Part shown: positions 232 to 53,036 of the stretch, in pieces | How the letters are laid out: each line of letters starts with the position of its first letter | How positions within the stretch are numbered: position 1 is the first letter of the stretch | DNA from: a virus | Taxonomy: Duplodnaviria > Caudoviricetes | IMG/VR virus record: IMGVR_UViG_3300044974_001269 | Location: 1 to 57,725 of that record | DNA: 57,725 bases | Reading direction: 5' to 3' (one strand) | The notes under the pieces: model-generated | The model's input: the letters and a program-made list of their open reading frames with translations, nothing else | Told to the model about the DNA's origin: nothing | The model's database searches: none | Program-made: the position numbers and the translations under genes

Positions 232-1065
232 TTATTTTAATAAATGATAATATTCTTTAAAATGTTTCAATCTATCAGCAAGTCCTATGGTTCCACCATT
301 TACACATTTTGTAACGGAAGTTACAGTTGCGTTGGAATCATCAACACATCTTTTCAAACAATTTTTACTGAAAAACCATGCCGCTGAGAGTAAAGGGTAT
401 TTTGTTGAAACCAAATCAGGATTTGAAACAATGTCTTCATTTATTGCTTTTCCAAATGCGGTGTAATTGTCTTTACCTGTGAGTTGAATATAACCTCTAC
501 CACGAAATTTGAAACCTTCTCCTGTTGATTCAGGACCGTTACCCATTCTTCCTCCGTACACCTTTGATGCAATTTTCTGAGGATTTCTTGCGTAAGATTC
601 AGAAAGATTTCCCGGAAAATATTTTGGGAAAATGTTTTTGAGACCCTGAGCGGAATAATTTAAATTCTCTTGAGTAAGTCTAAATCCTCCTGATTCGTGA
701 CCACACTGTGCAAGAAAGTGAGCAAGTTTTAAAGGTGTATCGATACCGAATTTTTTTGCGGTATCAGGAATTTGAGCGATAACATTATCAGGAATGTGAC
801 CCTTCAGATTTTCTAATTTCAAAGAACCAGTGTTTACAATTGGAGCTTGTTGTACAGGAGCGGGTTCAGTAATTAGAACTCCTTGTCCCATAATTTTTTG
901 CCATGTTTGTTCCCCCACGATACCATCGGGACTTAAACCATTTTTTGTTTGGAAATTTTTTACTGCTTGCTCAGTTCCATTACCGAAGATTCCATCGGCA
1001 CCTAAGCCCAATTTTTGTTGAAGTTTTTTAACGTCTTCTCCTTTAGACCCAACTTTTAGTAGCAT
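232..1065 (-). CDS. endolysin: peptidoglycan-binding domain + GH19 lysozyme/chitinase-like domain
   Basis: N-term LKVGSKGEDVKKLQ..ADGIFG..DGIVG; HESGGF, FRGRGYIQLTG and VNGG motifs. Confidence 0.92.
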   Translation of the reverse strand: MLLKVGSKGEDVKKLQQKLGLGADGIFGNGTEQAVKNFQTKNGLSPDGIVGEQTWQKIMGQGVLITEPAPVQQAPIVNTGSLKLENLKGHIPDNVIAQIPDTAKKFGIDTPLKLAHFLAQCGHESGGFRLTQENLNYSAQGLKNIFPKYFPGNLSESYARNPQKIASKVYGGRMGNGPESTGEGFKFRGRGYIQLTGKDNYTAFGKAINEDIVSNPDLVSTKYPLLSAAWFFSKNCLKRCVDDSNATVTSVTKCVNGGTIGLADRLKHFKEYYHLLK

Positions 1066-1093
1066 AGTAATTTACTTTTTCAATAAATATTTT

Positions 1094-2539
1094 CTACTGT
1101 GAAGAATGTGATAGATTAACATCACCTAATATACAATACTTGATGTTTTGAGTAACGTTCGAAGTTGTCACATTTATTGTAAAAAATGTGACGGGTGATA
1201 TAGAACCAAAGTTTGTTCTATTGATGGAGTCATAATTTGTTGCAGTGAACCAAAGCACTTCCGTAATAGGTCTGAGTCCTGTAATATGTGCTAAGATTAG
1301 ATATGCGTCACCTAAATCAATAATACCATTTTTATTTGCGTCAGCGGCTTTCCACTGCTTTGTTCCCGTTAGAAATAAACCTGAGGGAGTATTATTAGGT
1401 GTATTTACGTTTTGAATTTCGTTAAATAGTGGGGTAAAATCGGCGGTTGTTATCCCTTGAATCGAAAGAGAGGGGACTAATTTATAGGTCGAATTTTGTT
1501 GAGGTAAAGTAAAGGTGTAAGTTCCACTTGAAGTTAAAGTTTTATAATCGACCAAGGTTTCAACTCCGTTTACCACCCTATATAATGTCAAAGTTGGATA
1601 AGGGCTCAGTGTCGGAACTGAAACTGTACCCGAAAGTGTATTTGTAATTGCAACAGTATTAGTTGTGTTTGCTGCGTAGTATCCTGTAAAAGTTGCATCC
1701 TGAGGATTTGACCACGTACCAAACTCAATTACGTAAGGATTGGACCAATCAGGTAAATCATTCCAACATCCACCACCACCCCATTTTGTTACTGCAAAAT
1801 CTTCACCACCAGCATCATTAGGTTCACCACCACACCAATTTTGATATGTTCCTGGTTGAGGGTTCCCATTAAAGTTTCCAATATTGACCAAAGTTCCATT
1901 TTCAGGACCCGCATCAACTCTCCAATAACCCTCTTGTAGTCTGTCTGAGAGAGCAAACCATATATTATTCTGAGGAACGTTTGCAATAATAAAGTTTTGT
2001 TCATCCGCAGACGTAATTGTCACCAAATAACCAGTTTGACCTTTGAAGGTTTGTTGAGCAGCTAAAACCTTTGAATTTGTGTAAGTCGCGGTGGTCGAAA
2101 TTGGTCTATAAAAGTGACCATTTGTTGCGTTGTAATAATATCCCACAGGGTTTATTGTTGTTGAAACTGAGATTTGAACACTTCCCAATGCAGAACCTGT
2201 GTTGATTTTGAGTGAGGCAAGTGCGTTATTTACGTTTGCTTGAGTTCCTGTGAAACTTATTCTTGTGATATTTGACCAAGTGTTATATCCTGTGGCAAAA
2301 GATAAACCTGTAGTTGTTGTGATTGAAAATGTTGTTCCTGCGGGGGGATTAACAAGACCTATTGAAGTTAATAAAGTTTCAGATGTGAATCCGTTGATTA
2401 CAAATCCACTTGCATCTTGACCTGAGGTACTCACCTGATAAGTTCTTCCTGGAGGTGCCGTTACACTTTGTGCGAAACAAAAATCATGCGAAACAAACTG
2501 TGCGAAACAAAATAAAAATATGGTAAGGAATATTTTCAT
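1094..2539 (-). CDS. secreted protein with C-type lectin domain and C-terminal dockerin-like region
   Basis: signal peptide; GYLVTITSADEQ, WCGGEPN, WND lectin motifs; ADANKNGIIDLGD Ca-loop; GDVNLSHSS end. Confidence 0.8.
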   Translation of the reverse strand: MKIFLTIFLFCFAQFVSHDFCFAQSVTAPPGRTYQVSTSGQDASGFVINGFTSETLLTSIGLVNPPAGTTFSITTTTGLSFATGYNTWSNITRISFTGTQANVNNALASLKINTGSALGSVQISVSTTINPVGYYYNATNGHFYRPISTTATYTNSKVLAAQQTFKGQTGYLVTITSADEQNFIIANVPQNNIWFALSDRLQEGYWRVDAGPENGTLVNIGNFNGNPQPGTYQNWCGGEPNDAGGEDFAVTKWGGGGCWNDLPDWSNPYVIEFGTWSNPQDATFTGYYAANTTNTVAITNTLSGTVSVPTLSPYPTLTLYRVVNGVETLVDYKTLTSSGTYTFTLPQQNSTYKLVPSLSIQGITTADFTPLFNEIQNVNTPNNTPSGLFLTGTKQWKAADANKNGIIDLGDAYLILAHITGLRPITEVLWFTATNYDSINRTNFGSISPVTFFTINVTTSNVTQNIKYCILGDVNLSHSSQ

Positions 2540-4020
2540 AGATTTACTTTACTACCAATCAAGAAAAATGATAAAATAGGAAACTCAGGATTGGTACTCA
2601 GATTGGCTTTATAATTTACATTAAATTTGAATCTTCTTGAGATTTGGTAATCAAATCCACTTCCTATGAACGCACTGAATGTTCTGTCTGTTACAGTTAC
2701 TTTATCTACTGAAGAATAAACCACAGGTGTTGAAATTAAATAAATCTCAGGGGAGATGGTAAGTTTTTTATTTGCAACAATTGGCTTGGTATAAAATGCA
2801 GTGAATGATGGACTGATAAATAAGTTACTATCTTCAGGAAGTTTGGCAACAGCTCCACTTATATTAAATCCTGTAATTCCCCACTTCTTGGCGTTTATTA
2901 TCATACTATAACCCAAAAATGAAAATAGGTTTCCGTATGAATAAGCACCCGTTAGATTTACATTATGAACGAATTTAAGGGTTCCTGATTGGTTAATTTT
3001 TATTTTTGTATATCTTGAATTGATAGCAAATTGTTTGAAATTAAACCAAATCATTCCTGTTACACCCCAAGAACTTGTTCCCATTAGAGAGGTTCTTGAT
3101 ACACCGACATTTGCAATTCCTGTAAAACTTTTGTCTAAGTTTTGAGCGGAAGTAAGGTCAGATGAGACTATCATGGGGTTCGAATTTCCTGATTTTGATG
3201 AACCTTTTTTTCCTCCACCTCCACCACTTGAACCACCACTTTCTGAACCACGGTCGTTCCTTACATCAACGTTCATTACCGTTGTCGCCACCACCTCTGA
3301 ACCTTTTTCTTTATCTTTCTCACCGCTTCCCGTAGAAGAAGATGTAGAAACGCCACTATTATTATTACCCCCACTATTAGGAGAATTACTGTTCCCCCCG
3401 ACACCACTGCCACCGCTTGTAGGGTTATTTGAAGTCCCTTGAGAAGAAGTTTGACCCCCTTGGTTAGAACTTCCCACAGGTACAGAACTGTTGCCCTGAC
3501 CGCCTGATACACCTGAGCCCCCATTTGGAGAAGTCCCACTACTATTAGTATTAGAAACGGAATTATTAGAGTTAGAATTAGTATTTTCATTTCTATTTCT
3601 TGTTTTTTCGGACCTATTGTCTTTTGAACCCGCATCATTTCCACCCATAGATGAACCTTGCATCACGGATGAGTTTATTTGACCAACAACACTACTTACC
3701 ACATTTCCGATTACTTGTGCGGTTATTTGATTTCTTGTGACACCTACGGATTGAACCGAGCAAGGTGTCAATTTTCTGTAGTCCACATAAGCTTGATTGA
3801 CCCAAGAGGCAAAAGCACCACTCGCCACGTCAGCCGCGGTGAATGATGCCGATTTTCCATAAAAATAAATTATTGTTCCTCCCTGAATAGGGATTGAAAA
3901 GTTTGTGACAGCTTTTGTGCAAGGGTCTATAAACTCGTAATTAATGGTTTGAGCATCAACTTTCAAGCTGAGAAAGAAGATACAAACAATACTTAAAAAA
4001 ATTTTTAACCCTTTCCACAT
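2536..4020 (-). CDS. outer-membrane beta-barrel protein with Gly/Ser/Asn-rich linker
   Basis: signal peptide, low-complexity middle, C-terminal amphipathic beta strands. Confidence 0.7.
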   Translation of the reverse strand: MWKGLKIFLSIVCIFFLSLKVDAQTINYEFIDPCTKAVTNFSIPIQGGTIIYFYGKSASFTAADVASGAFASWVNQAYVDYRKLTPCSVQSVGVTRNQITAQVIGNVVSSVVGQINSSVMQGSSMGGNDAGSKDNRSEKTRNRNENTNSNSNNSVSNTNSSGTSPNGGSGVSGGQGNSSVPVGSSNQGGQTSSQGTSNNPTSGGSGVGGNSNSPNSGGNNNSGVSTSSSTGSGEKDKEKGSEVVATTVMNVDVRNDRGSESGGSSGGGGGKKGSSKSGNSNPMIVSSDLTSAQNLDKSFTGIANVGVSRTSLMGTSSWGVTGMIWFNFKQFAINSRYTKIKINQSGTLKFVHNVNLTGAYSYGNLFSFLGYSMIINAKKWGITGFNISGAVAKLPEDSNLFISPSFTAFYTKPIVANKKLTISPEIYLISTPVVYSSVDKVTVTDRTFSAFIGSGFDYQISRRFKFNVNYKANLSTNPEFPILSFFLIGSKVNL

Positions 4021-4737
4021 TTATTTTGGGAACACGCCCTTTTTAATCATCCTTACAAGAATTCTACTACAAGCAATTTCAAGTGCTTTCTTTGTAGTAA
4101 TTCCTATTGTAGATTGATTGAATTTAACGTCACTCAAATTATCATCATTTAAAAGAGATAATTCTCTGACAGTCTTTGCCTCACCAAGACCTGATGCTGC
4201 AATAATTTCACCTGTTTCTGCGTTTGTAAATCTAACCTGAAGACCGAGTCTTGTGTTTACAATATTTTTAACTCCATCTTTTAAATTTACAGTCTCATCT
4301 TCAGAAACAGAAAAGTCATAAACTTCGATTGTAACGAAATAATGAGCAAGTCTAATCTTACCTCTTCCGTCCAATTTGTCTTGACTGATTCCTGCTTGGG
4401 ATGCCTGAAACTGTTTAACCATACGGTTTTTTATTTCGGTTTTATCTTCAGTAAAAGTAAATCTGTTTAGTTCAGACAAAAACTCCAAACTGATATTTGC
4501 AACACCAAGACCAACTTTCTTTTCTTTGAGTTCAGGATACTGTTCATATACCTCATCACTAATTCCAATTGTTAAGATTTGAATTGGAATTTGTGGACCA
4601 TCATAGTCCATAAGTGAATCGATATTAATCTTTGTTTCAAAACTCGCTTTATACTGCTCAGTTTTTGTTGTCCCCACAACTTGTGCGTTGACAAATGAGC
4701 ATGCAAGTAGAAATACAGGTAATAAAATTTTCTTCAT
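4021..4737 (-). CDS. CsgG/HfaB-like (curli-assembly family) protein
   Basis: likely start MKKILLPVF at 4737; GLGVAN..L..NRF and RLGLQVRFTNAETGEI..ASGLGEA patterns. Confidence 0.7.
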   Translation of the reverse strand: MKKILLPVFLLACSFVNAQVVGTTKTEQYKASFETKINIDSLMDYDGPQIPIQILTIGISDEVYEQYPELKEKKVGLGVANISLEFLSELNRFTFTEDKTEIKNRMVKQFQASQAGISQDKLDGRGKIRLAHYFVTIEVYDFSVSEDETVNLKDGVKNIVNTRLGLQVRFTNAETGEIIAASGLGEAKTVRELSLLNDDNLSDVKFNQSTIGITTKKALEIACSRILVRMIKKGVFPK

Positions 4738-4738
4738 T

Positions 4739-5296
4739 TTAAACTTGTTTAATAAGACCACATTTAAGACACTCTTCATCTCCATCACCATCAGCGTCAC
4801 CCCAAACGTGTTCACACTGACGATGTTCGAAATACATGTCTATAATACCGTCACCATCCTCATCGATACCATCCATTGTACCATCACCATCTTCATCGAT
4901 TTCGACACCGACTTGAGGGGCGACCTGAGGGGTTACTTGAGGGGTGGATACCACAATAGGTTCATTATGTTGAGCCGATGCAAAATCTTTCATATCTAAA
5001 GTAGATGAGAAAGATACACCATCCTCTTCGTCCATTTTTTGAACTAACATCTTGTCCTTATCTGTATCACTGAACCAATAGTCAATAATCTTACCATAAG
5101 AACCGATAAAAGCACCAAGTAATAAAAGTAGAAGCTCTTTCCACTCTCCACTGATAGCACTTTGTTCAAAAATAGCCAAAAAAATTGCGCCCATGATTAC
5201 AACAAATCCTCCAAGAACAAGAGCGGTAATCCACCATCTCTTTTTCATCATGGAGTTTAATAAATCTTTAAATCCTGTTGGTGTTTGTTGACTCAT
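4739..5296 (-). CDS. two-TM membrane protein with DxDxDG Ca-binding loops
   Basis: two hydrophobic helices; DEDGDGTMD, DEDGDGIID, DADGDGDEEC..C. Confidence 0.75.
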   Translation of the reverse strand: MSQQTPTGFKDLLNSMMKKRWWITALVLGGFVVIMGAIFLAIFEQSAISGEWKELLLLLLGAFIGSYGKIIDYWFSDTDKDKMLVQKMDEEDGVSFSSTLDMKDFASAQHNEPIVVSTPQVTPQVAPQVGVEIDEDGDGTMDGIDEDGDGIIDMYFEHRQCEHVWGDADGDGDEECLKCGLIKQV

Positions 5297-5299
5297 AAA

Positions 5300-5608
5300 T
5301 TACCATTTTGGTTCCTCTGAAAAAGGTTTAGGTTTTGGAGCAGGTTCAGCTGGTTTAGCAGCAGGTTGCGACGCTTTTTCTTTGATAATCACAGTTTTCT
5401 CAGGTGCTGCTTGCTGTTGTTGAGAATTGTTAATTACGATTGTTGGTTGAGGAGGAGGTGCTTGTTCTTGTTTTTCTTCATGACCGCCAAACAACAAAGT
5501 GCTTAGCCATACGCCACCACCCGCAACAACAGTTCCGAGTGTTCCTACGATGGTCTTCTTTAGTCCTGACCAAGACCCATCATTTTGTTCTAATTGTTCT
5601 TCTGACAT
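5300..5608 (-). CDS. single-TM protein with Pro/Gln-rich tail
   Basis: ORF tightly packed in operon; one TM helix. Confidence 0.75.
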   Translation of the reverse strand: MSEEQLEQNDGSWSGLKKTIVGTLGTVVAGGGVWLSTLLFGGHEEKQEQAPPPQPTIVINNSQQQQAAPEKTVIIKEKASQPAAKPAEPAPKPKPFSEEPKW

Positions 5609-5612
5609 AGTT

Positions 5613-7517
5613 TTAAATTTTTACAAATGGTTTAGTTATTCTTTCATTATTATTCGCCATCACTAACAAATATTTACCTTGTGCTAGATTTTTGGCGTTA
5701 ATGGCTCTTGTGATTACGTTTGTAAACTCATCGGTTTTGAAATCTCCTAAATCCAAAACCTTTCTTCCGTTGTAATCATAAACATAACCCTTCATCCAAT
5801 AATTATTCGGAAATGTAACAGTTAATTCAAATTGTCCCGAATTTGGATTTGGTCTGATTTCTGCAATAGGCTTCGTTACGGCTAATACTGGCCCTGCCGC
5901 TCTATAAGTTAAAACTATTCTTTCAGATGCTAATTCAATATTGAAATGTTCACCTTCAGAATTGGAGGCGTCCATTAGTTGTCTAACAAAAACATAAGAA
6001 GAAATATCTTCCGAAGGGTCAATTGGCGTAAATTTTAAATTAAAGGGGGTGGATAAACCACTTATCCCCCCCTTTTTTTGATTATTCATTCCACCGAATC
6101 TGATGATTCCATTTTGGTCATCATGAGTTACATATTGTAACCACTCATTCGGAACTTTTGATATTATTTCTGCGAATCTAACTTTTGTTGGGTCATATTT
6201 CATTTCGAATTGTAATCCATAATTTACTAGTCCGTTTGTGGATACATTAAATGGTACAAACATGGGTTGACCTACAGAATATGAGTTCGGAATATTAACA
6301 GAATATCTTCCAGTATAAACAGGACCTCTTACAAGGTTCCCGTTTGCGTCATAAACAGGTGAAGAGTGACTTCTGTCAACATCTCCTTGTACATAATATT
6401 TCAAATCTAATGACAAATTAGAAGTAAGAACCGTATCTAGTACGAAATTTTGTCTACTTGTATAAGTTGTCCAATCTGACCACTGATTTGTACCTAAAGC
6501 CAAACTATCAAACTCGTTTTTGGTGAAAACTTTAATCAAGTTATTTGTTGCAATCGGTCTAAGTCCAGAAACGGAAGCGTAAATACCATAAGGGTCACCA
6601 CCATCAAACTTTTGGTTCCAATTTATATCTGCAATCAAATATGCCAACCCATTTTGTAAATGAGTGCGAGGGTAAGTTTGAGAAATGTCAGCGTTTACAA
6701 ATTCGTTGAACGCTTTTACTGCGTCAGTAACAGTAACTGAATTGTCTCTAATTGAAACTAAACTATCAGGATTGAATCTTAATTCGATTTTATACCTTGT
6801 GTTTTCATCGATATTATCCAAAACATATAAACCTGTGTTTATATCTGGAACTGTAGTTGAAACAAGATTTCCTGTTGCATTTTCATAACAATATAATGTC
6901 GGAACCCAACCTCTTGTAATCACTGATGGTGGAAGCCAAACCTTACCTGAAATTGTAAGGTTTCCAAGTAATTTCACTGCGAGTTTGTTATAATTCAAAA
7001 CCGCCACGTTGTCTCCAATTGTTGTTCCGTCAACTTTGAACATTCTTGCCCAATTAAGGGTTACAGTATCTGATACGAAGTTTGGAATTACGTTGTTAAT
7101 TCTATATTTGTTGTGAATTATGTAACCATTAGAGGAAACCTGTGAACCATTTGATAAAACCAAATAGTTTCTTGCTATAGTCCAGTTTGTATCGGACACA
7201 TAAGTGTAATTTCCACTTGAGTAGGATTGATATTTGTAATCATCCCAACTTCTGTAGGAAATTTCGGGACCGTTTCCACTAACCGCAGCGTCAACAGTTG
7301 TGGATATGTGTGTAAAAAGTCGTTTTTTATATTGCCAGTCCACTTGAAAACTTCTCACATCCGTACCAGTCGCTGGTTTGTAATACCAAGCAACATCTAA
7401 CGTGTCACCTCTCCTTACAGTTTTCAATTGTTGGAAGTGACCGATTTCTGGTGTTTGTGAAAAACCTAAAAATGGGAATGACAATAATGAAATAAATGCC
7501 AATAATTTTTTCATCAT
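5613..7517 (-). CDS. T9SS cargo protein with cohesin-like and dockerin-like regions
   Basis: signal peptide; C-term PNP...YDYNGRKV...LAQGKY...KPFVKI (type A CTD); VPFNVS..YGLQFEMKYDPTKVRF cohesin-like; ADINWNQKFDGGD Ca-loop. Confidence 0.8.
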   Translation of the reverse strand: MMKKLLAFISLLSFPFLGFSQTPEIGHFQQLKTVRRGDTLDVAWYYKPATGTDVRSFQVDWQYKKRLFTHISTTVDAAVSGNGPEISYRSWDDYKYQSYSSGNYTYVSDTNWTIARNYLVLSNGSQVSSNGYIIHNKYRINNVIPNFVSDTVTLNWARMFKVDGTTIGDNVAVLNYNKLAVKLLGNLTISGKVWLPPSVITRGWVPTLYCYENATGNLVSTTVPDINTGLYVLDNIDENTRYKIELRFNPDSLVSIRDNSVTVTDAVKAFNEFVNADISQTYPRTHLQNGLAYLIADINWNQKFDGGDPYGIYASVSGLRPIATNNLIKVFTKNEFDSLALGTNQWSDWTTYTSRQNFVLDTVLTSNLSLDLKYYVQGDVDRSHSSPVYDANGNLVRGPVYTGRYSVNIPNSYSVGQPMFVPFNVSTNGLVNYGLQFEMKYDPTKVRFAEIISKVPNEWLQYVTHDDQNGIIRFGGMNNQKKGGISGLSTPFNLKFTPIDPSEDISSYVFVRQLMDASNSEGEHFNIELASERIVLTYRAAGPVLAVTKPIAEIRPNPNSGQFELTVTFPNNYWMKGYVYDYNGRKVLDLGDFKTDEFTNVITRAINAKNLAQGKYLLVMANNNERITKPFVKI

Positions 7518-8005
7518 TCAAATAGATTTTTGATTAATGTCTCACAGGATTTTTTTATCACATTAGAGACGGATTGTTGATTAATTTTACCACCTTCCGA
7601 AATTATCAGGGAAGACATAGAAATTTCCGAAGACTTTTCAGTTACTATCGTTTCTTTTATTTTTTTTCCTTTTGAGTCCAAAAGTTTTGCTCTCACTCTG
7701 AGAACCGTTTCATCATTTTCTTTATGAATTACAGAAAATCCTGTCTTGGTGTTAAGAACATCAAAGAAAATCAATTCAATTTGCAATTTATTCTCAGATA
7801 AATTACAACTGTCTACTAGTTGAAACTCCCTGTCTTGAAGGTATTCAAGTAAGATGTTCTTGAAACCAAATGTTAGGTTTCTATTACCCAACATTTGTCC
7901 AATTTGGATTTTATTTTCAATAGATGAAATACAAACCTTTTTATCTTGTGAATAAGAAAAAAGGGTGCTAAAAAGCAATAATAAAGTAACGAAAATTTTT
8001 CTCAT
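7514..8005 (-). CDS. secreted protein, short CsgG-like; first gene of envelope operon
   Basis: signal peptide; LTFGFKNILLEYLQDREF resembles the corresponding segment of the 4021-4737 protein. Confidence 0.65.
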   Translation of the reverse strand: MRKIFVTLLLLFSTLFSYSQDKKVCISSIENKIQIGQMLGNRNLTFGFKNILLEYLQDREFQLVDSCNLSENKLQIELIFFDVLNTKTGFSVIHKENDETVLRVRAKLLDSKGKKIKETIVTEKSSEISMSSLIISEGGKINQQSVSNVIKKSCETLIKNLFE

Positions 8006-8029
8006 TTTTCGGTAGTATCTTGGTATTCA

Positions 8030-8037
8030 TAAATATA
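8030..8037 (-). promoter_or_regulatory. TATATTTA promoter-like element for the envelope operon
   Basis: recurrent ATATTTAT motif found shortly upstream of many starts in this window. Confidence 0.55.
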
Positions 8038-8078: not shown

Positions 8079-9182
8079 ATGCGGTTATTGACAGAAATAG
8101 ATAGGATAAAATCGGTCATGGGGATTTTGAACGAACAAGATGAAGAATCTTCAGCTCCAAAGATGAATCGTAATCTCAAATCTGTTGTTGAAACATTACA
8201 ATTTTTGAAAATCTACGGTGGCAAAATTGAGAAAATGTTGGTTGATATTTCTGACTACGCAAACAATCAAATTATAGATTTTGATTTGATGAATAGAGGA
8301 TTGAGAAAAGTACTTTTGAAAAAAGGTGACAAAAAAAAGAATATTGAAGATTACTTAGGTAAAATTCTAACATCTCTCAAATATAGAGAAAGAGATGGTT
8401 ATGGTGTTGAACCTGAAAGTGAAGATTATGGTTTTGAAATTGAGGAGCCTTCCTTGATACCAAAAAAAGTTTATAAAAAAGAACTTTATGAACTTCAGGT
8501 AGAGTTACTAAAACTACAGGAGTGGTTGAAAAAAACTGGAAAAACTGTAATAGTTGTTTTCGAAGGAAGAGACTCTGCGGGTAAAGGTTCTACAATCAAA
8601 AAATTCACTGAGAACTTGAACCCAAGATATTATAATGTGGTTGCGTTGGGTGTACCAACACCAGAAGATAGAAAAGATTGGTGGAACAGATACAGAAAAC
8701 AAATAAGACCAGGAGTAATCAATCTTTTTGACCGTAGTTGGTATAATAGAGGACTTGTTGAGCCCGTTATGGGATATGGAACGCCTGAAGAATATGCTGA
8801 TTTCATGGAAAATGTTGAGGACTTTGAAAATGATTTAGTTAAAGACGGAGACTATCTTTTCAAATTATGGTTTTCAATTGATAAAGACACTCAAAAAAGA
8901 AGATTTGATATTCGTCAGAAATCACCTTTGAAATATTGGAAATATTCTCCAAACGATGCAAAAATGCAAGACCTTTGGGATAGGTTCACTGAATTCAAAG
9001 AAAAACTTTTTGATAAGACCTCAACGGTAAACAATCCTTGGGTTGTAATTGACTCTGAAGACAAAAGAATATCAGGACTTAACGCAATTAGATACGTTTT
9101 ACAAAACATTCCTTATGAAGGGAAGAATACGAAAGTTTTGGATGTAGAATACCCAGAAGTTTTAGCTGTTTTGAAACCTTAA
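8079..9182 (+). CDS. ppk2: polyphosphate kinase 2 with ~130-aa N-terminal extension
   Basis: FEGRDSAGKG Walker A, FDRSWYNR Walker B, PLKYWKYSPND. Confidence 0.93.
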   Translation: MRLLTEIDRIKSVMGILNEQDEESSAPKMNRNLKSVVETLQFLKIYGGKIEKMLVDISDYANNQIIDFDLMNRGLRKVLLKKGDKKKNIEDYLGKILTSLKYRERDGYGVEPESEDYGFEIEEPSLIPKKVYKKELYELQVELLKLQEWLKKTGKTVIVVFEGRDSAGKGSTIKKFTENLNPRYYNVVALGVPTPEDRKDWWNRYRKQIRPGVINLFDRSWYNRGLVEPVMGYGTPEEYADFMENVEDFENDLVKDGDYLFKLWFSIDKDTQKRRFDIRQKSPLKYWKYSPNDAKMQDLWDRFTEFKEKLFDKTSTVNNPWVVIDSEDKRISGLNAIRYVLQNIPYEGKNTKVLDVEYPEVLAVLKP

Positions 9183-13582: not shown

Positions 13583-14185
13583 ATGAGTAAAGGTCTTAAT
13601 CCTGAATTGAATGTTGGTGATAAGGTTGTTTGTTACCACATGGAGGGTGAAATGAGTGTGCCGCCTGGTACAAAGGGTGTTGTTACAAATAAAAGTATTG
13701 ACCCATTTGTGAAGGATGGGTTTTTGTATAAAGTTGAATGGGAAAATGGTTCAAAATTACCTTTACTAACAGATACAGACACTTGGAAAAAACTCGAACA
13801 AGAAATCCGAGAGGAAAAATCTTTTGACCCGATGATGGAATTATTCAAAAAAAACAAATCATTATTCAAACATTTCGATTTGGACTTTTTCAGAGAGTTT
13901 TTATTAAAATTAAGAGAATCAGGGATTACAAATATGTACGGCTCATCACCTCTTATCTATGCGGGAAAAGACCACATTGAAAGATATTATGGTGAAGGAA
14001 AAGAGGACGATGAAAATTTTCAGGAGTTGTTGGATATTGCCGACCAATCAAGGGACAAACTTGTTTCAGGATTAGTTAGTTTTGCAAAGGAACAAAACAT
14101 TGATTTGGAAGACGAAAACAAACTAAACCAATTAGCAAGACAATTTGCAAAAGATATACTTGTTATGTATATCAACACCTTTTAA
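13583..14185 (+). CDS. DUF4314-like domain protein
   Basis: start MSKGLNPEL at 13583; VPPGTKGVV..VEWENGSKL; C-term LRESGITNMYG. Confidence 0.75.
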   Translation: MSKGLNPELNVGDKVVCYHMEGEMSVPPGTKGVVTNKSIDPFVKDGFLYKVEWENGSKLPLLTDTDTWKKLEQEIREEKSFDPMMELFKKNKSLFKHFDLDFFREFLLKLRESGITNMYGSSPLIYAGKDHIERYYGEGKEDDENFQELLDIADQSRDKLVSGLVSFAKEQNIDLEDENKLNQLARQFAKDILVMYINTF

Positions 14186-15339
14186 TTACTCAGTGGTGCT
14201 TTTATTGGTGGGTGTGATTTATAATTGATAAGTTCAATTTGTGAGACATTGATTTTATCCCATAAGATTTTATATCCCTCTTGATATTGATATTCAAAAT
14301 TCAATGAGATTTTGGGTAAAGAGTAAGGTTCTCTTGTTGTTTTTGGTGTTGGTGTCCAATATGGGTTATCGAAATCAACTTTTTCTGATTCATTATATTC
14401 AAAACCTGTTTCGTAGTTGTTTGCAAACCAAATGTGATATCTTTCTTCATAACCTAATTCACGACCAATTTGTTGTTTTGCCTGTTCAATATGGTTCAAA
14501 TATAGATGAACGTCGCCTAAGTTTCCTATTAGTTGGTCAGGGACCATGTTAACTTCCTTAGCGATTAGTGAAAGTAAAAGTCCGTAAGATGCGATATTGA
14601 AAGGTAAACCTAAGAATGTATCCACTGAACGTTGATTCCACATTAAAGAAATTGCTCTTGATGGTGCGTAATCCAAAGGGTCGATATTTTTGATATATCC
14701 CCTTTTTTCATATTCAGCAACCCTCTCTTCAACCGATAGCTCTCTTGTATAAACTTGAAATCCGTAGTGACATGGAGGTAAAACCATTTCATCAAGTTCG
14801 GCGACATTCCACGCAGAAACCATTAGTCTTCTTGAATCAGGATTAGTTTTCAATTGATAGATTAATGTCTGAATTTGGTCATACCAAATCGAACCTCGCC
14901 TATCGTTATCGTGTAAATCCATCCAACCCTGCCATTTTCTCCACTGTTTACCATATATAGGTCCCAATTCACCCCACTTTTTTGCAAATTCATCATTTGT
15001 TTTTATCTCATTGATGAACCATTCTTTTGTTGGAATGTCTTCGTGTCCAACAAAATGATTAGAATAATTTTTATAAGCGTCCCCGTCCCAAATATGACAA
15101 TCATTATCAACAAGATATTTGATATTGGTATCACCACGTAAAAACCATAACAATTCGGTAACCAAAGTTTTCCAAGCCATTTTTTTTGTTGTCAGAAGAG
15201 GAAAACCTTCTTTCATATTGTGTCTAATCGTGTAACCGAAGATAGACTTTGTACCAGTACCGGTTCTGTCCGTCTTTTCTACTCCGTAGTCAATAATATC
15301 TTGTAGAAGTCGTCGATATTGTTTGTCTATATTATTCAC
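14182..15339 (-). CDS. thyA: thymidylate synthase ThyA with insertions
   Basis: DRTGTGT, FPLLTTKK, LGPIYGKQWR, LPPCH, RSVDTFLGLPFN, GDVHLY. Confidence 0.97.
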   Translation of the reverse strand: MNNIDKQYRRLLQDIIDYGVEKTDRTGTGTKSIFGYTIRHNMKEGFPLLTTKKMAWKTLVTELLWFLRGDTNIKYLVDNDCHIWDGDAYKNYSNHFVGHEDIPTKEWFINEIKTNDEFAKKWGELGPIYGKQWRKWQGWMDLHDNDRRGSIWYDQIQTLIYQLKTNPDSRRLMVSAWNVAELDEMVLPPCHYGFQVYTRELSVEERVAEYEKRGYIKNIDPLDYAPSRAISLMWNQRSVDTFLGLPFNIASYGLLLSLIAKEVNMVPDQLIGNLGDVHLYLNHIEQAKQQIGRELGYEERYHIWFANNYETGFEYNESEKVDFDNPYWTPTPKTTREPYSLPKISLNFEYQYQEGYKILWDKINVSQIELINYKSHPPIKAPLSN

Positions 15340-15535: not shown

Positions 15536-15726
15536 TCTTGAATCATATAGTTTATGTTGTCAGAAAGGTAATCCATTTTGGATAACCATTCGAGAAGCTC
15601 GTCTTGACCATCATATTTTCCCTTTTCATAACATTTCTGCATGGCATCAACTAAACCCTCCTGATTTAATAAGACACTATGAACATTATGTTCACGAATT
15701 AGGTCGATATAATTTTCTTTTGTCAT
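15514..15726 (-). CDS. hypothetical protein
   Basis: packed ORF. Confidence 0.7.
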   Translation of the reverse strand: MTKENYIDLIREHNVHSVLLNQEGLVDAMQKCYEKGKYDGQDELLEWLSKMDYLSDNINYMIQEWKNQKK

Positions 15727-15938
15727 TTTTCAATAAACATTACGGTGTTTGCAATTGGAAGTCTTGCAACAGGTAATCTACCAACTTCAGGTAGTTCCTG
15801 TAAAACTTCATAATAACCTCTATCATCTACTTTTACGGTCGGTACAGACCCGAAGTTGGAAATAATTTTTGAGTCACCAACAGGTCCATCAAGTACCTTA
15901 ACTGTTTTTTCGGTTGTGTTGAATACTAGTGTGTGCAT
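15723..15938 (-). CDS. hypothetical protein
   Basis: packed ORF with ATGA overlap. Confidence 0.75.
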   Translation of the reverse strand: MHTLVFNTTEKTVKVLDGPVGDSKIISNFGSVPTVKVDDRGYYEVLQELPEVGRLPVARLPIANTVMFIEK

Positions 15939-15979
15939 TTGTTTGTTTTTGTATTGTAAATTTAAGAAAAAAAGAGCAT

Positions 15980-16062
15980 AAAAAAAACAAGTGAACTCAT
16001 AAAAATTTTTGGCGAATAGTAAATTACCAAGATACTATCAAAAATTGAGAGGTTCACTTGTC
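15980..16062 (-). ncRNA. candidate trans-antisense hairpin sRNA
   Basis: GACAAGTGAAC...GTTCACTTGT terminal stem, internal stems, U8 tail; complementary to the leader at 8000-8025. Confidence 0.7.
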
Positions 16063-16066
16063 TAAT

Positions 16067-16097
16067 TAATTCTATCGTTTTAAAACGCCAAAGTCAA
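16067..16097 (-). promoter_or_regulatory. promoter of the hairpin sRNA
   Basis: TTGACT-N17-TAGAAT(TA); predicted start about 16062. Confidence 0.65.
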
Positions 16098-16138
16098 CTC
16101 AAATGTAAAAATTAAACTATTTATAAAGAAAAATTACT

Positions 16139-17641
16139 ATGCAGTATTGGAGTTTAGGACAAATGTCAAATGAGGAGAAAGAAAATATCTTATCCAAACA
16201 CAAAGAGGTTTATAATGGTTACCAAACAATGCAACCAAAAGTTAATAACACACAACCCCTTTATGTTCAAGACTTTGCAAAAGATAAGTTGGGTGCAACT
16301 ATCACAAATGATGGTACTGTAAAACCTTATACTGATTATAGAATCAATGAGTCACATGTTATGGATACTTGTGAACAATGTGGAGGAACGATGAATGAAG
16401 GTGAATGTTCTGAATGTGGTTGGGGTGGACAAATGAACGAAAAAGTTGATATAGAAAAGGTTATAAAAAAAGGGGTTAAGAAAGCTAAGGAATTTGTCTA
16501 TGGTAAACAAAAAGACTCTAAAAAACCTTACACGGCGGAAGCGGTTGATAAAATTATATCATCAATCAAAGGTTCAAAAAACGAAGAGCAACTCAAAAGT
16601 ACTTTGAAAATGTTCGAAAATATTTTGGACACTAATGATGACCTTTTAGACGTTTATAAAGATAGAATAATTAATGCTTTTAAGAGGAAAGCCCAAGAAC
16701 TCGATTTCTATTTGGATAAATCCATGTTAAAAAAACTGGACATCAAGGAATATAAAACAGGCAAATTATCTGACATTTATCATCAGGAAGATTTAAATCC
16801 ATCAGACGATTTCGATTATGTAGAAGGTGGTGGAAATGATTACGGTACTTTTGAAAAAATGCACCATATGAAAGATATAAAAAACGAGGAAACTGCAACA
16901 TCAAATGCTCCTTTGTCATATGGAAAACATTACAACGAAATTGAACCTCCTTATGATTTTAAATCCAATGGACCTGTCGGGGATGGTGGAACTCTAAGAC
17001 AAAAAGATGTGAATGAAGGCAGTTACACTGGCGGTGGAAATTCTCCAGATTTTGAGGCCGATATTGACCCAGCTTTTGATTTTGAAACGGATGGTCCAAT
17101 TGAGGATACTTACACAGAACCAGCAGATGATATGGATTTGGATGAAAAACAGTCTTGGAAAGCTTATGACTTCATGTCAGGTGGACCTGATAATGGAGGA
17201 GATGCGTATCCGATGAACGAAGAGGGTGAGTGTGAAGAATGTTGGGAAAAAATGGAATCAGCATGGACTGAAGAAGTAGATGAACAAGATGTTTCTGGTG
17301 TACAAGGAATATATGGGGCGGCAGAAAAACCATACGCGTTCGTTAGCACGGGTCCTGGTAAAGCAGGTCCATACCAAACTCATAGCTGGGGTGGAGAACA
17401 ATTAAGTGAAGAAGGTTATGAGTCAGAAGATGAAGATGTTTATTGGGAGGAAGATTTGGAACCTAACGAACTTAATTTAGACCTTACAAAGTTCAATCCT
17501 GAAGACAAGTCTTGGGAAGAAATAACCGCACATACAGGTGAAGATGAATTTGCACACTTGAATGAAGATGTGAAAGAAAAGCTAGAAAAACAGCAAGGTA
17601 AAATTCTTGAAATGTTCGAGAGGTTCAAAAGATTTCAGTAA
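16139..17641 (+). CDS. acidic repeat-containing protein, probable internal head protein
   Basis: CxxC..NEGEC motifs, four (Y/F)xFxSxGP-like repeats, many xNE sites. Confidence 0.8.
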   Translation: MQYWSLGQMSNEEKENILSKHKEVYNGYQTMQPKVNNTQPLYVQDFAKDKLGATITNDGTVKPYTDYRINESHVMDTCEQCGGTMNEGECSECGWGGQMNEKVDIEKVIKKGVKKAKEFVYGKQKDSKKPYTAEAVDKIISSIKGSKNEEQLKSTLKMFENILDTNDDLLDVYKDRIINAFKRKAQELDFYLDKSMLKKLDIKEYKTGKLSDIYHQEDLNPSDDFDYVEGGGNDYGTFEKMHHMKDIKNEETATSNAPLSYGKHYNEIEPPYDFKSNGPVGDGGTLRQKDVNEGSYTGGGNSPDFEADIDPAFDFETDGPIEDTYTEPADDMDLDEKQSWKAYDFMSGGPDNGGDAYPMNEEGECEECWEKMESAWTEEVDEQDVSGVQGIYGAAEKPYAFVSTGPGKAGPYQTHSWGGEQLSEEGYESEDEDVYWEEDLEPNELNLDLTKFNPEDKSWEEITAHTGEDEFAHLNEDVKEKLEKQQGKILEMFERFKRFQ

Positions 17642-52637: not shown

Positions 52638-53036
52638 TGGTGGAGAAGACGGGAGTCGAACCCGTTTCTTGTTCGCGATGACTATAAGTGACTACACGTT
52701 TATTACAACATTGTTTCTCAATGTTCCGAAATATTAAGTTTGATATATGTGGGAACCAAACTTACAAACAACCTGGTCTCAGAGTTATTTTAAAGGAGCT
52801 CTGACCTGTGACCCCTATAACGGACTTCTGTTCCTAGGTTTTATGTCCTTCCCGACCCGAATATTGAGTTCTTAATTCAATTAAGCCTCAACAACAGCTT
52901 CCTCAGCAATTAGACCGAGAGCAGCCATTTTAGCAAAAGTATTGCCAGTTGTGTTTCGAACCAGTTTTTAAGGAGTTAATTCAGCTCCTACGTGCCACCT
53001 ATACCCACACACGCCAATCAATGCCGTGACTTCCCC
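52638..53036 (-). ncRNA. ssrA: tmRNA, tag (A)GNTFAKMAALGLIAEEAVVEA at 52946-52881
   Basis: GGGGAAG/CTTCTCC-ACCA acceptor with G3:U, GGTTCGACTCC T arm, AACT-GGC resume context, TATATTTG promoter at 53056-53063. Confidence 0.93.

What the first reader, a model, noticed from the sequence alone, without database searches (positions are those of the whole stretch)
15980..16097. Hairpin sRNA antisense in trans to the leader and start codon of the envelope operon 8 kb away
Seen: on the minus strand a TTGACT-N17-TAGAAT promoter precedes an ~82-nt long imperfect hairpin ending in U8. Its segment 5'-UCUCAAUUUUUGAUAGUAUCUUGGUA-3' (16050-16025) is complementary to the mRNA leader 5'-UACCAAGAUACUACCGAAAAAUGAGA-3' (8025-8000). 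That gives 23 Watson-Crick pairs plus one G:U out of 26, with 13 contiguous, and covers the AUG at 8005 of the first gene of the CsgG/T9SS operon. The apical loop UCUUGGUAAUU exposes the seed that pairs with the predicted extreme 5' end of that mRNA. Inference: a dedicated phage trans-acting antisense RNA times or silences the envelope module by loop-initiated strand invasion.
Basis: partly seen in the sequence, partly recalled or inferred. Interest (0 to 1): 0.88.

Follow-up and report, generated by a model that had tools for sequence, protein, structure and literature searches.

The report
Conserved phage antisense RNA for envelope/lysis genes
A small hairpin RNA gene kept in one spot by a whole group of huge phages of Bacteroidota is complementary to the start regions of two of the phage's own envelope and lysis genes, so it probably switches them off or delays them.

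Summary
The promoter-like hexamers, the 83-nt hairpin with a U8 tail (16062-15980, minus strand) and the 26-nt complementarity to 8025-8000 are all present, and the match is not chance.

Comparative data support most of the interpretation:
- The hairpin is a single-copy element found in at least 49 distinct versions in IMG/VR huge-phage contigs, always next to the same 500-aa gene.
- It has covarying stems, an invariant 17-nt apical part and more G:U pairs on the minus strand.
- A Bacteroidota-type promoter (TTG-N20-TAnnTTTG) ends just before the hairpin base, and most copies have a U-run after it.
- The 5' leader of the 163-aa gene carries the complementary core in every clade I could pair. 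The variable part next to the core changes in concert. One clade has lost both hairpin and leader motif.
- A second, weaker candidate target is the start site of the endolysin gene (232-1065).

Expression and the regulatory effect are untested. The RNA also forms the leader of the operon downstream of it. A shared DNA operator is not excluded.

Verdict: a new family of phage trans-antisense RNA, probably a translational brake on an envelope/lysis module. Confidence is about 0.65.

The parts
16092..16097 (-). -33 element of the sRNA promoter (begins with TTG)
   Evidence: A TTG lies 15-22 nt (mostly exactly 20) upstream of the -7 box in 39 of 49 family members. In the window the spacing is 20 by my count.
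16067..16074 (-). -7 box position of the sRNA promoter; a weak copy in the window with 2 mismatches to TAnnTTTG
   Evidence: At this position 41 of 49 members match TAnnTTTG with at most 1 mismatch. In Flavobacterium the box occupies -12 to -5 (PMC9723704, passage), which puts the start at 16062.
15980..16062 (-). predicted 83-nt sRNA: one long imperfect hairpin followed by a U8 run (15987-15980)
   Evidence: The covariance model scores 74.2 bits here (E 7.6e-11). It is the only significant copy in the window.
16022..16032 (-). 11-nt apical loop, the proposed seed
   Evidence: MFE and centroid. The closing pair is kept in 49 of 49 members.
16025..16050 (-). anti-leader segment: 5' arm plus the 5' part of the loop
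16020..16036 (+). 17-nt apical stretch, unchanged in 47 of the 49 versions
   Evidence: The other two versions (L053, L054) carry one substitution in it, and L054 also a 1-nt deletion.
8000..8025 (-). target 1: complete 5' leader and first codons of the 163-aa gene
   Evidence: ddG -8.2 kcal/mol, rank 1 of 78 gene starts.
8029..8035 (-). phage-type promoter-like 7-mer (TATTTAT) just upstream of the leader
7514..8005 (-). 163-aa secreted protein with an LptE/PelC/CsgG-like fold; first gene of the envelope module
5613..7517 (-). 634-aa protein with a T9SS C-terminal sorting domain
1057..1075 (-). target 2 (candidate): 10 nt of leader plus the first three codons of the endolysin gene
   Evidence: By my hand count, 16 Watson-Crick pairs, 1 G:U and 2 mismatches of 19 against the apical part of the sRNA; rank 1, 2 or 14 of 78, depending on the window used.
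232..1065 (-). endolysin (PG_binding_1 plus glycoside hydrolase 19)
15723..15938 (-). 71-aa gene, first gene of the operon downstream of the sRNA (followed by 70-aa and 67-aa genes and thymidylate synthase)
16139..17641 (+). 500-aa acidic protein of no known family, the constant divergent neighbour; it has its own TATTTAT motif at 16118-16124

Best explanation
Positions 16062-15980 (minus strand) encode a small RNA of about 83 nt. It is made early by the host RNA polymerase from a Bacteroidota-type promoter, and it ends at, or reads through, its own hairpin and U-run.

The 5' arm and the 11-nt apical loop are antisense to the entire short 5' leader and start codon of the 163-aa gene 8 kb away. 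That gene is the first of an envelope module encoding secreted and T9SS-type proteins. More weakly, the apical part is also antisense to the start site of the endolysin gene at the far end of that module. Both target genes sit behind a phage-type promoter-like motif.

Pairing would begin at the exposed loop against the 5' end of the mRNA, then open the hairpin and cover the start codon. In hosts that do not use Shine-Dalgarno sequences, this should block initiation. The RNA would thus hold back or set a threshold for envelope and lysis proteins.

Shown: sequence, structure, conservation, covariation, co-loss and thermodynamic preference.
Inferred: transcription, the direction of regulation (repression) and its timing.
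For: 1. Family.
- The core is present upstream of the 500-aa homologue in 27 of 32 loci. One further locus is cut off, and 4 lack the core.
- Pattern scans gave 69 candidate sequences. 51 passed my filter and I dropped 2 more by eye, leaving 49 distinct versions.

2. Structure.
- 84.2% of cells are paired, against 79.3% in shuffles (0 of 500 reach it) and 36-48% when the partner is slid.
- 58 cells have changes on both sides, against 24.8 in shuffles. 7 of 8 pairs of the main outer helix show such changes.

3. Strand.
- The minus strand folds better in 38 of 51 versions.
- G:U pairs: 104 of 1139 on the minus strand, 34 of 1051 on the plus strand.
- Two apical pairs are G:U or U:G in 14 and 24 versions, which works on the minus strand only.

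4. Transcription signals: -7 box with at most 1 mismatch in 41 of 49, -33 TTG in 39 of 49, U-run in 37 of 49.

5. Copy number: one copy per genome, 74.2 bits in the window and 68.4 bits in the complete 321-kb relative. The next hits have E >= 0.2.

6. Target kept.
- The core directly follows the phage-type motif in the leader of the 163-aa homologue in the window, L324, G002, G003, L340, L341/344, L346/347, L356, G001, G005, G007 and G019. Protein identity falls as low as 49%.
- In G008 and G012 the core heads other genes.

7. Concerted change. In the 14 nt after the core, each hairpin matches its own leader better than the leaders of other genomes: score sum 63 against 42.9 +/- 6.0 under permutation, p = 7e-4. 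The one clade that changed the core changed it in both the hairpin and the leader.

8. Co-loss. L004-6 lack the hairpin, and the leaders on the same contigs (L048-50, L337-339) lack the motif.

9. Energetics.
- In 11 of 11 genome pairs the cofold optimum pairs the leader with the 5' arm and loop. ddG is -6 to -16 kcal/mol, against -0.6 to -6.6 for shuffled leaders. 0 of 100 shuffles reach the observed value in 9 pairs, 1 and 4 of 100 in the other two.
- Among 78 gene starts of the window, the 163-aa gene is first at -8.2; the next is -1.6, and the mean is -0.37 with sd 0.99.

10. Endolysin.
- It ranks first of 396 gene starts in G001 (-6.1, next -2.7).
- Its start region is conserved in relatives.
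Against: - No expression data. No RNA run was listed, so transcription, RNA ends and effect are untested.
- A crude duplex-energy scan of the whole window ranks the leader only 4th among non-self windows (-36.0, against -37.8, -37.2 and -37.0).
- By my hand count, transitions between hairpin and leader are not clearly biased towards G:U-compatible ones (about 11 against 7, with ambiguous alignments).
- In the permutation table, the own leader ranks first, ties included, for only 5 of 10 hairpins. The clades are also not independent.
- G006 is 98% complete and has the hairpin, but no target was found. The profile search found no 163-aa homologue in G006, G008, G010, G012 or G013.
- The 17-nt core hardly drifts at all. 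This would also fit recognition by a third party such as a protein.
- The antisense segment is largely locked in a -20 kcal/mol hairpin.
- The endolysin result depends on the window used: rank 1, 2 or 14 of 78 in the window. The 163-aa homologue's own value in G001 runs from -1.3 to -5.3.
- The endolysin start motif is also kept in the clade that lacks the hairpin (L337).
Confidence: 0.65

Rival explanations
1. Shared DNA operator. A phage DNA-binding regulator recognises the invariant core at both places: downstream of the start of the 163-aa promoter, and inside the transcribed leader of the 71-aa operon. The hairpin is then only a leader structure or terminator.
For: The core is nearly invariant over deep divergence, which is typical of protein sites. 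Both sites lie in divergent promoter regions. Co-loss fits this model equally well.
Against: The likeness runs well beyond the core, through to the start codon, and is clade-specific. In G008 it covers about 35 nt, including the outer stem, which is long for an operator. Most hairpins carry the complement of a start codon at the right distance. This model does not explain the stem covariation or the strand bias of G:U pairs.
Confidence: 0.12
2. Reverse direction, or cis-only. The hairpin is a terminator/attenuator in the leader of the downstream operon (84-aa gene or 71-aa gene, then thymidylate synthase). The late mRNA 5' ends pair with its 5' arm to open it. The 'targets' would then be the regulators, or sponges, and the operon the thing regulated.
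For: - In 28 of the 49 versions the match to the 84-aa gene starts 37-51 nt beyond the core motif, directly behind the hairpin, so its start codon follows the U-run at once. There is no room there for another promoter.
- In hairpin-less relatives the same promoter drives the operon directly.
- Cofold shows that pairing dissolves the hairpin.
Against: - In the window and its nearest clades a further TAnnTTTG-like box lies between the U-run and the 71-aa gene (read by eye).
- The clade without a U-run keeps the complementarity.
- Pairing covers start codons, which is what translational repression needs and antitermination does not.
- Trans antitermination would have to be very fast.
Confidence: 0.12
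3. A DNA-level hairpin (cruciform, origin or packaging signal), with likeness to the leader through gene conversion and without any RNA function.
For: It is a long inverted repeat at a fixed place in an A+T-rich divergent intergenic region next to an uncharacterised conserved gene.
Against: - A conserved promoter ends a few nt before the hairpin base, and a U-run follows the hairpin.
- G:U pairs are biased to one strand.
- Gene conversion between repeats of about 26 nt that lie 8-13 kb apart in inverted orientation is unlikely to persist in a dozen clades without selection.
Confidence: 0.05

Closest known systems
c4 antisense RNA of phages P1/P7
   Same: A small phage-encoded hairpin RNA, made from the leader of an operon, that blocks expression of phage genes (icd, ant) by base pairing. 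Basis: passages of PMC8198154; that it pairs through loops at the ribosome-binding region is recalled.
   Different: c4 acts on its own operon transcript in the immunity region of a temperate phage. Here the targets lie 8-15 kb away on separate transcripts of a huge phage. There is no likeness in sequence or structure, and no Rfam family matched.
Cis-encoded phage antisense RNAs (lambda OOP, P22 sar) and P4 CI RNA
   Same: Short phage antisense RNAs with a terminator hairpin that set the timing of phage genes (recalled, not read here).
   Different: OOP and sar overlap their targets on the opposite strand, so their complementarity is automatic. Here the complementarity is between distant loci and has to be maintained by selection.
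Trans-acting sRNAs of prophages and phages (DicF; a lambda sRNA that acts on host replication)
   Same: Trans-encoded base-pairing RNAs carried by phages. Basis: search listing and start of the abstract of bioRxiv 10.1101/2024.10.31.621285; DicF is recalled.
   Different: Those act on host mRNAs and use Hfq (recalled). Here the targets are the phage's own late-type genes, and the host phylum is said to lack Hfq and Shine-Dalgarno use. Basis: start of the abstract of PMC6847099 for Shine-Dalgarno; recalled for Hfq.
Loop-initiated antisense systems of plasmids (CopA/CopT, RNAI/RNAII, Sok/hok)
   Same: The recognition loop sits at the top of a long hairpin, followed by progressive pairing. The invariant loop contains a YUNR-like tetranucleotide (recalled motif; my reading).
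   Different: Those are cis-encoded. No kinetic or structural data exist here.

Membership tests
Any Rfam 15 family | Score at or above the family's gathering threshold | tested here: not met
   Over 15700-16400 the best overlapping hit is a plant snoRNA model at 18.7 bits, with a threshold of 47 (E 0.89). The window-wide gathering scan found only tRNAs and a tmRNA.
Trans-encoded base-pairing sRNA | Own promoter in the right orientation | tested here: met
   A TTG-N20-TAnnTTTG arrangement ends 3-8 nt before the hairpin base. The box has at most 1 mismatch in 41 of 49 versions, and the TTG is present in 39 of 49. The window's own box has 2 mismatches.
Trans-encoded base-pairing sRNA | Conserved complementarity to a translation start region at another locus | tested here: met
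Trans-encoded base-pairing sRNA | The RNA is made and changes expression of the target | not testable with these tools
   No RNA run was listed.
Intrinsic (Rho-independent) terminator | Stable stem directly followed by a U-run | tested here: inconclusive
   At least 5 T occur in the 8 nt after the hairpin in 37 of 49 versions. One clade has no U-run. The tool's terminator rule did not list this hairpin. The stem base has 3 G-C pairs in 8.
Bacteroidota sigma-A promoter | TAnnTTTG at -12 to -5, with TTG near -33 (PMC9723704, passage) | tested here: inconclusive
   Met for the family. The window copy has 2 mismatches in the box. No transcription start data exist.
   No CsgG family appeared in any of the 8 genes from 232 to 8005 (down to E 1 for seven of them). 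There is only fold likeness to the wider LptE/PelC/FlgT/CsgG group, with TM scores of 0.34-0.59 on a model of mean pLDDT 69.
T9SS cargo protein | C-terminal sorting domain (Por_Secre_tail) | tested here: met
   Gene 5613-7517, residues 556-629, 31.2 bits with a cut-off of 27.

The most novel reading that the evidence does not exclude
One early RNA acts as an RNA-only timer of lysis in huge phages of Bacteroidota.

- Its invariant loop pairs with the start sites of both the endolysin and the first gene of the envelope module, holding them silent.
- When the late mRNAs accumulate, they titrate it.
- By opening its terminator hairpin, they also let transcription run into the downstream operon.

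This would be a reciprocal two-way RNA switch coupling early and late programmes, in a host phylum without Shine-Dalgarno use or Hfq.
Probability: 0.15. Interest if true: 0.85.

Novelty: new variant of a known kind. Interest (0 to 1): 0.7.

Why it matters
Phage-encoded regulatory RNAs with known targets are few, and almost all come from phages of enterobacteria and Pseudomonas.

This RNA-target pair can be read from sequence alone. It is conserved across a widespread group of uncultured 300-kb freshwater phages. The complete relatives G001 and G007 encode ribosomal protein bS21, as does the group described in PMC9723584.

It suggests that such phages use antisense RNA to control their own envelope and lysis genes. 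It also gives a concrete, mutable 11-nt seed for testing how base-pairing RNAs work in Bacteroidota, where translation starts without Shine-Dalgarno pairing.

My searches listed no paper describing it. This rests on the listings only.

Tried and rejected
- Rfam: no family matched.
- Phage record collection: blastn of 15700-16400 found no match.
- RNA evidence: no RNA holder was listed.
- Whole-window duplex scan: one search timed out. I repeated it with a coarser step. It is crude and does not single out the leader.
- RNAalifold on the MAFFT alignment recovered only the 6 outer pairs. I therefore counted pairs on a structure taken from per-sequence folds. That structure comes from the same sequences, so the slid controls flatter it.
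One search showed that both readings were wrong. The motif is the -33 element of one promoter, and the relative keeps the 17-nt spacing.
- Plus-strand RNA as a leader of the 500-aa gene: rejected. That gene has its own promoter-like motif downstream of the hairpin, and the G:U bias favours the minus strand.
- The 14-nt pattern scan gave mostly chance hits: 112 of 117 matches lacked the hairpin context under my test, which itself missed at least one real copy (L148).
- No target was found in G006.
- No function was found for the 500-aa, 71-aa or 84-aa neighbours. The 84-aa protein matches phrog_13182, of unknown function.

Full report
**The observation**

- Two hexamers lie 17 nt apart on the minus strand at 16097-16069.
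- A long imperfect hairpin follows, ending in eight T at 15987-15980.
- It folds at -21.9 kcal/mol against -10.5 for shuffles (z = -4.0; 0 of 200 shuffles fold as well). The apical loop has 11 nt.
- The 26 nt at 16050-16025 are complementary to the minus-strand RNA of 8025-8000: 23 Watson-Crick pairs, one G:U and two mismatches, with 13 contiguous.
- No shuffle of the window gave such a pair of sites (0 of 100).
- The hexamers alone mean nothing: 48 such sites in 11 kb, against 44.2 +/- 6.7 in shuffles.

**Context**

The window is an IMG/VR virus record of 57.7 kb, rated 19% complete. It carries 14 tRNA genes and a tmRNA. Complete relatives have 317-321 kb.

Both the hairpin and the target lie in divergent intergenic regions.
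- The target gene (7514-8005) encodes a 163-aa secreted protein of no Pfam family. Its model (mean pLDDT 69) resembles small outer-membrane lipoproteins such as FlgT, PelC, LptE and CsgG.
- Downstream come a protein with a T9SS sorting domain, several proteins of no known family, a C-type-lectin-domain protein and an endolysin.
- The hairpin lies between a 500-aa acidic protein of no family (plus strand) and a minus-strand operon of three small genes and thymidylate synthase.

**The hairpin is a conserved, structured, single-copy element**
- Upstream of homologues of the 500-aa gene, the core is present in 27 of 32 loci. One locus is cut off and 4 lack it. Protein identity falls as low as 36%.
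Of 69 distinct candidates, 51 passed a filter for a centred hairpin. I dropped two more by eye, leaving 49 versions.
- Seventeen apical nucleotides (16020-16036) are the same in 47 of the 49. The other two versions, L053 and L054, carry one substitution there, and L054 also a 1-nt deletion. The stems differ freely.
- On a 21-pair structure, 84.2% of cells pair, against 79.3% in shuffles (0 of 500 reach it) and 36-48% when partners are slid. 58 cells have changes on both sides, against 24.8. 7 of 8 pairs of the main outer helix show such changes.
- A covariance model finds one copy in the window (74.2 bits) and one in the complete 321-kb relative G001 (68.4 bits). Everything else has E >= 0.2.
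- The 500-aa homologue follows within 97-898 nt in 48 of 49 loci; the 49th locus ends first.

**Which strand, and is it transcribed?**
- The minus strand folds better in 38 of 51 versions. It has 104 G:U among 1139 pairs, against 34 of 1051 on the plus strand.
- Two apical pairs are G:U or U:G in 14 and 24 versions.
- When the versions are aligned on the hairpin base, the upstream minus-strand sequence shows a promoter of the type used by Bacteroidota. A TAnnTTTG box (at most 1 mismatch in 41 of 49) ends 3-8 nt before the hairpin. A TTG lies mostly 20 nt further up (39 of 49). After the hairpin, 37 of 49 have a U-run.
- In Flavobacterium the box lies at -12 to -5 (PMC9723704, passage).
The window's own box is weak, with 2 mismatches.
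- I could get no RNA data.

**The RNA is also an operon leader**
- In 30 of 49 versions an 84-aa gene (phrog_13182, function unknown) lies downstream on the same strand. In 28 of these its match starts 37-51 nt beyond the core motif, that is, directly behind the hairpin. The sequences show its start codon right after the U-run.
- One clade has no U-run at all.
- In relatives without the hairpin, the same promoter stands directly before the 71-aa gene.

**The link to the 163-aa gene**

A 7-nt motif (TATTTAT) lies 0-40 nt before 20 called gene starts in gene orientation, against 9 in the reverse orientation. I take it as a phage-specific promoter element; this is inference.

In the 163-aa gene the core follows this motif after 2-4 nt, so the complementarity covers the whole predicted leader. 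The same arrangement holds in every clade I could pair:
- the window and its close relative L324;
- G002, G003, L341/344, L347, L356, G001, G005, G007 and G019;
- L340 and L346, where the hairpin was out of range.

In G008 and G012 the core heads other genes: a PAS-domain protein and a 496-aa secreted protein.

Beyond the core, the sequences differ between clades but agree within a genome.
- Permutation of hairpin-leader pairings gives 63 against 42.9 +/- 6.0 (p = 7e-4). The own leader is best, ties included, for 5 of 10 hairpins, and the clades are not independent.
- The only clade that changed the core changed it in both places.
- The clade without the hairpin (L004-6) has a 163-aa gene whose start codon follows the promoter motif after 4 nt, with no core.
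- Most hairpins carry the complement of a start codon at the right distance.

Cofolding gives the same picture.
- It pairs the leader with the 5' arm and loop in 11 of 11 genomes. ddG is -6 to -16 kcal/mol, against -0.6 to -6.6 for shuffled leaders.
- Among 78 gene starts of the window, the 163-aa gene stands alone at -8.2. The next is -1.6, and the mean is -0.37 with sd 0.99.

**A second candidate target**
- The same scan over 396 gene starts of G001 put the endolysin homologue first (-6.1, next -2.7).
- Its start region is conserved among relatives. It resembles the plus-sense apical part of the hairpin, including the bases left of the core that the 163-aa leader does not match.
- By hand: 16 Watson-Crick pairs, 1 G:U and 2 mismatches of 19 in the window (1075-1057); 17, 1 and 1 in G001 and G005.
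- In the window its rank is 2, 1, 2 and 14 of 78 for the regions -35..+25, -15..+30, -20..+40 and -25..+35.
- In G001 both targets give -1.3 to -6.1, depending on the region used.
- The site includes conserved codons of the endolysin, which could explain why the loop does not drift.
- The motif is also kept in the clade without the hairpin, so it has constraints of its own.
- In G005 and G007 the two target genes are divergent neighbours, 50-90 nt apart.

**What does not fit**
- There are no expression data.
- A crude duplex scan ranks the leader only 4th.
- There is no clear excess of G:U-compatible differences (about 11 against 7, by hand).
- G006 is 98% complete and has the hairpin, but no target was found.
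- The near-invariance of the core would also suit a protein.

**Mechanism and rivals**

The best reading, at about 0.65, is an early RNA made by the host polymerase. It pairs loop-first with the 5' ends of two late-type phage mRNAs and covers their start codons, so blocking initiation.

Rivals:
- a DNA operator shared by both loci (0.12);
- the reverse direction, in which the late mRNAs open the terminator hairpin and let the operon be read (0.12; compatible with the main reading and part of the novel case);
- a DNA-level hairpin (0.05).

**Comparison with known systems**

It works like the c4 RNA of P1 (passages of PMC8198154) and like plasmid antisense RNAs that start pairing from a loop (recalled). 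It belongs to no described RNA family. It differs in acting on distant transcripts of the phage's own envelope and lysis genes, and in a host phylum without Shine-Dalgarno use (start of the abstract of PMC6847099).

The complete relatives G001 and G007 encode ribosomal protein bS21, as do the freshwater Bacteroidetes phages of PMC9723584. I saw that paper's listing and passages. The words promoter, non-coding, small RNA and intergenic do not occur in its main text. Its supplements, which I could not open, may list the genomes and their expression.

Noticed in passing
window 1057-1075 (-), gene 232-1065: The endolysin start region is complementary to the apical part of the hairpin RNA and is conserved in relatives. 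It is a possible second target and would link the RNA to lysis.
   Followed up: partly
window, 20 gene starts (for example 8029-8035 -, 16118-16124 +, 1083-1089 -): A 7-nt motif (TATTTAT) lies 0-40 nt upstream of 20 of 78 called genes in gene orientation, against 9 in the reverse orientation. It is probably a phage-specific promoter element. Other genes have the host-type TAnnTTTG box.
   Followed up: partly
window 52638-53036 (-) and 14 tRNA genes between 11636 and 43952: The phage carries a tmRNA gene (82.5 bits; tag peptide predicted) and 14 tRNAs.
   Followed up: no
G001:108720-108872, G007:107695-107847: The complete relatives encode ribosomal protein bS21. This is a hallmark of the published group of huge freshwater phages of Bacteroidetes (PMC9723584). 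It was not found in the window, which is a fragment.
   Followed up: partly
L004-L006 and L008, upstream of position 4001: Relatives without the hairpin keep the -33/-7 promoter directly before the 71-aa gene. L004-6 retain a short remnant resembling part of the loop.
   Followed up: partly
L360 (G008:28350-31360): In G008 the core heads a 79-nt leader of a gene for a protein with repeated PAS-like segments (my reading of the sequence, not tested). The likeness to the hairpin runs about 35 nt, and a second partial copy of the core lies next to the start codon.
   Followed up: no
window 16139-17641 (+): A 500-aa, very acidic protein with paired-cysteine (zinc-ribbon-like) motifs and no family in Pfam or PHROGs. 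It is the constant neighbour of the hairpin, in 48 of 49 loci.
   Followed up: partly
G005:104591-104715 and G007:171708-171793: In these relatives the 163-aa gene and the endolysin gene are divergent neighbours, so both candidate target sites lie within about 125 and 90 bp.
   Followed up: no
window 14182-15339 (-) and 8079-9182 (+): A 385-aa thymidylate synthase whose Pfam match falls into two stretches, so it may carry an insertion. A polyphosphate kinase 2 gene lies divergent to the 163-aa gene.
   Followed up: no
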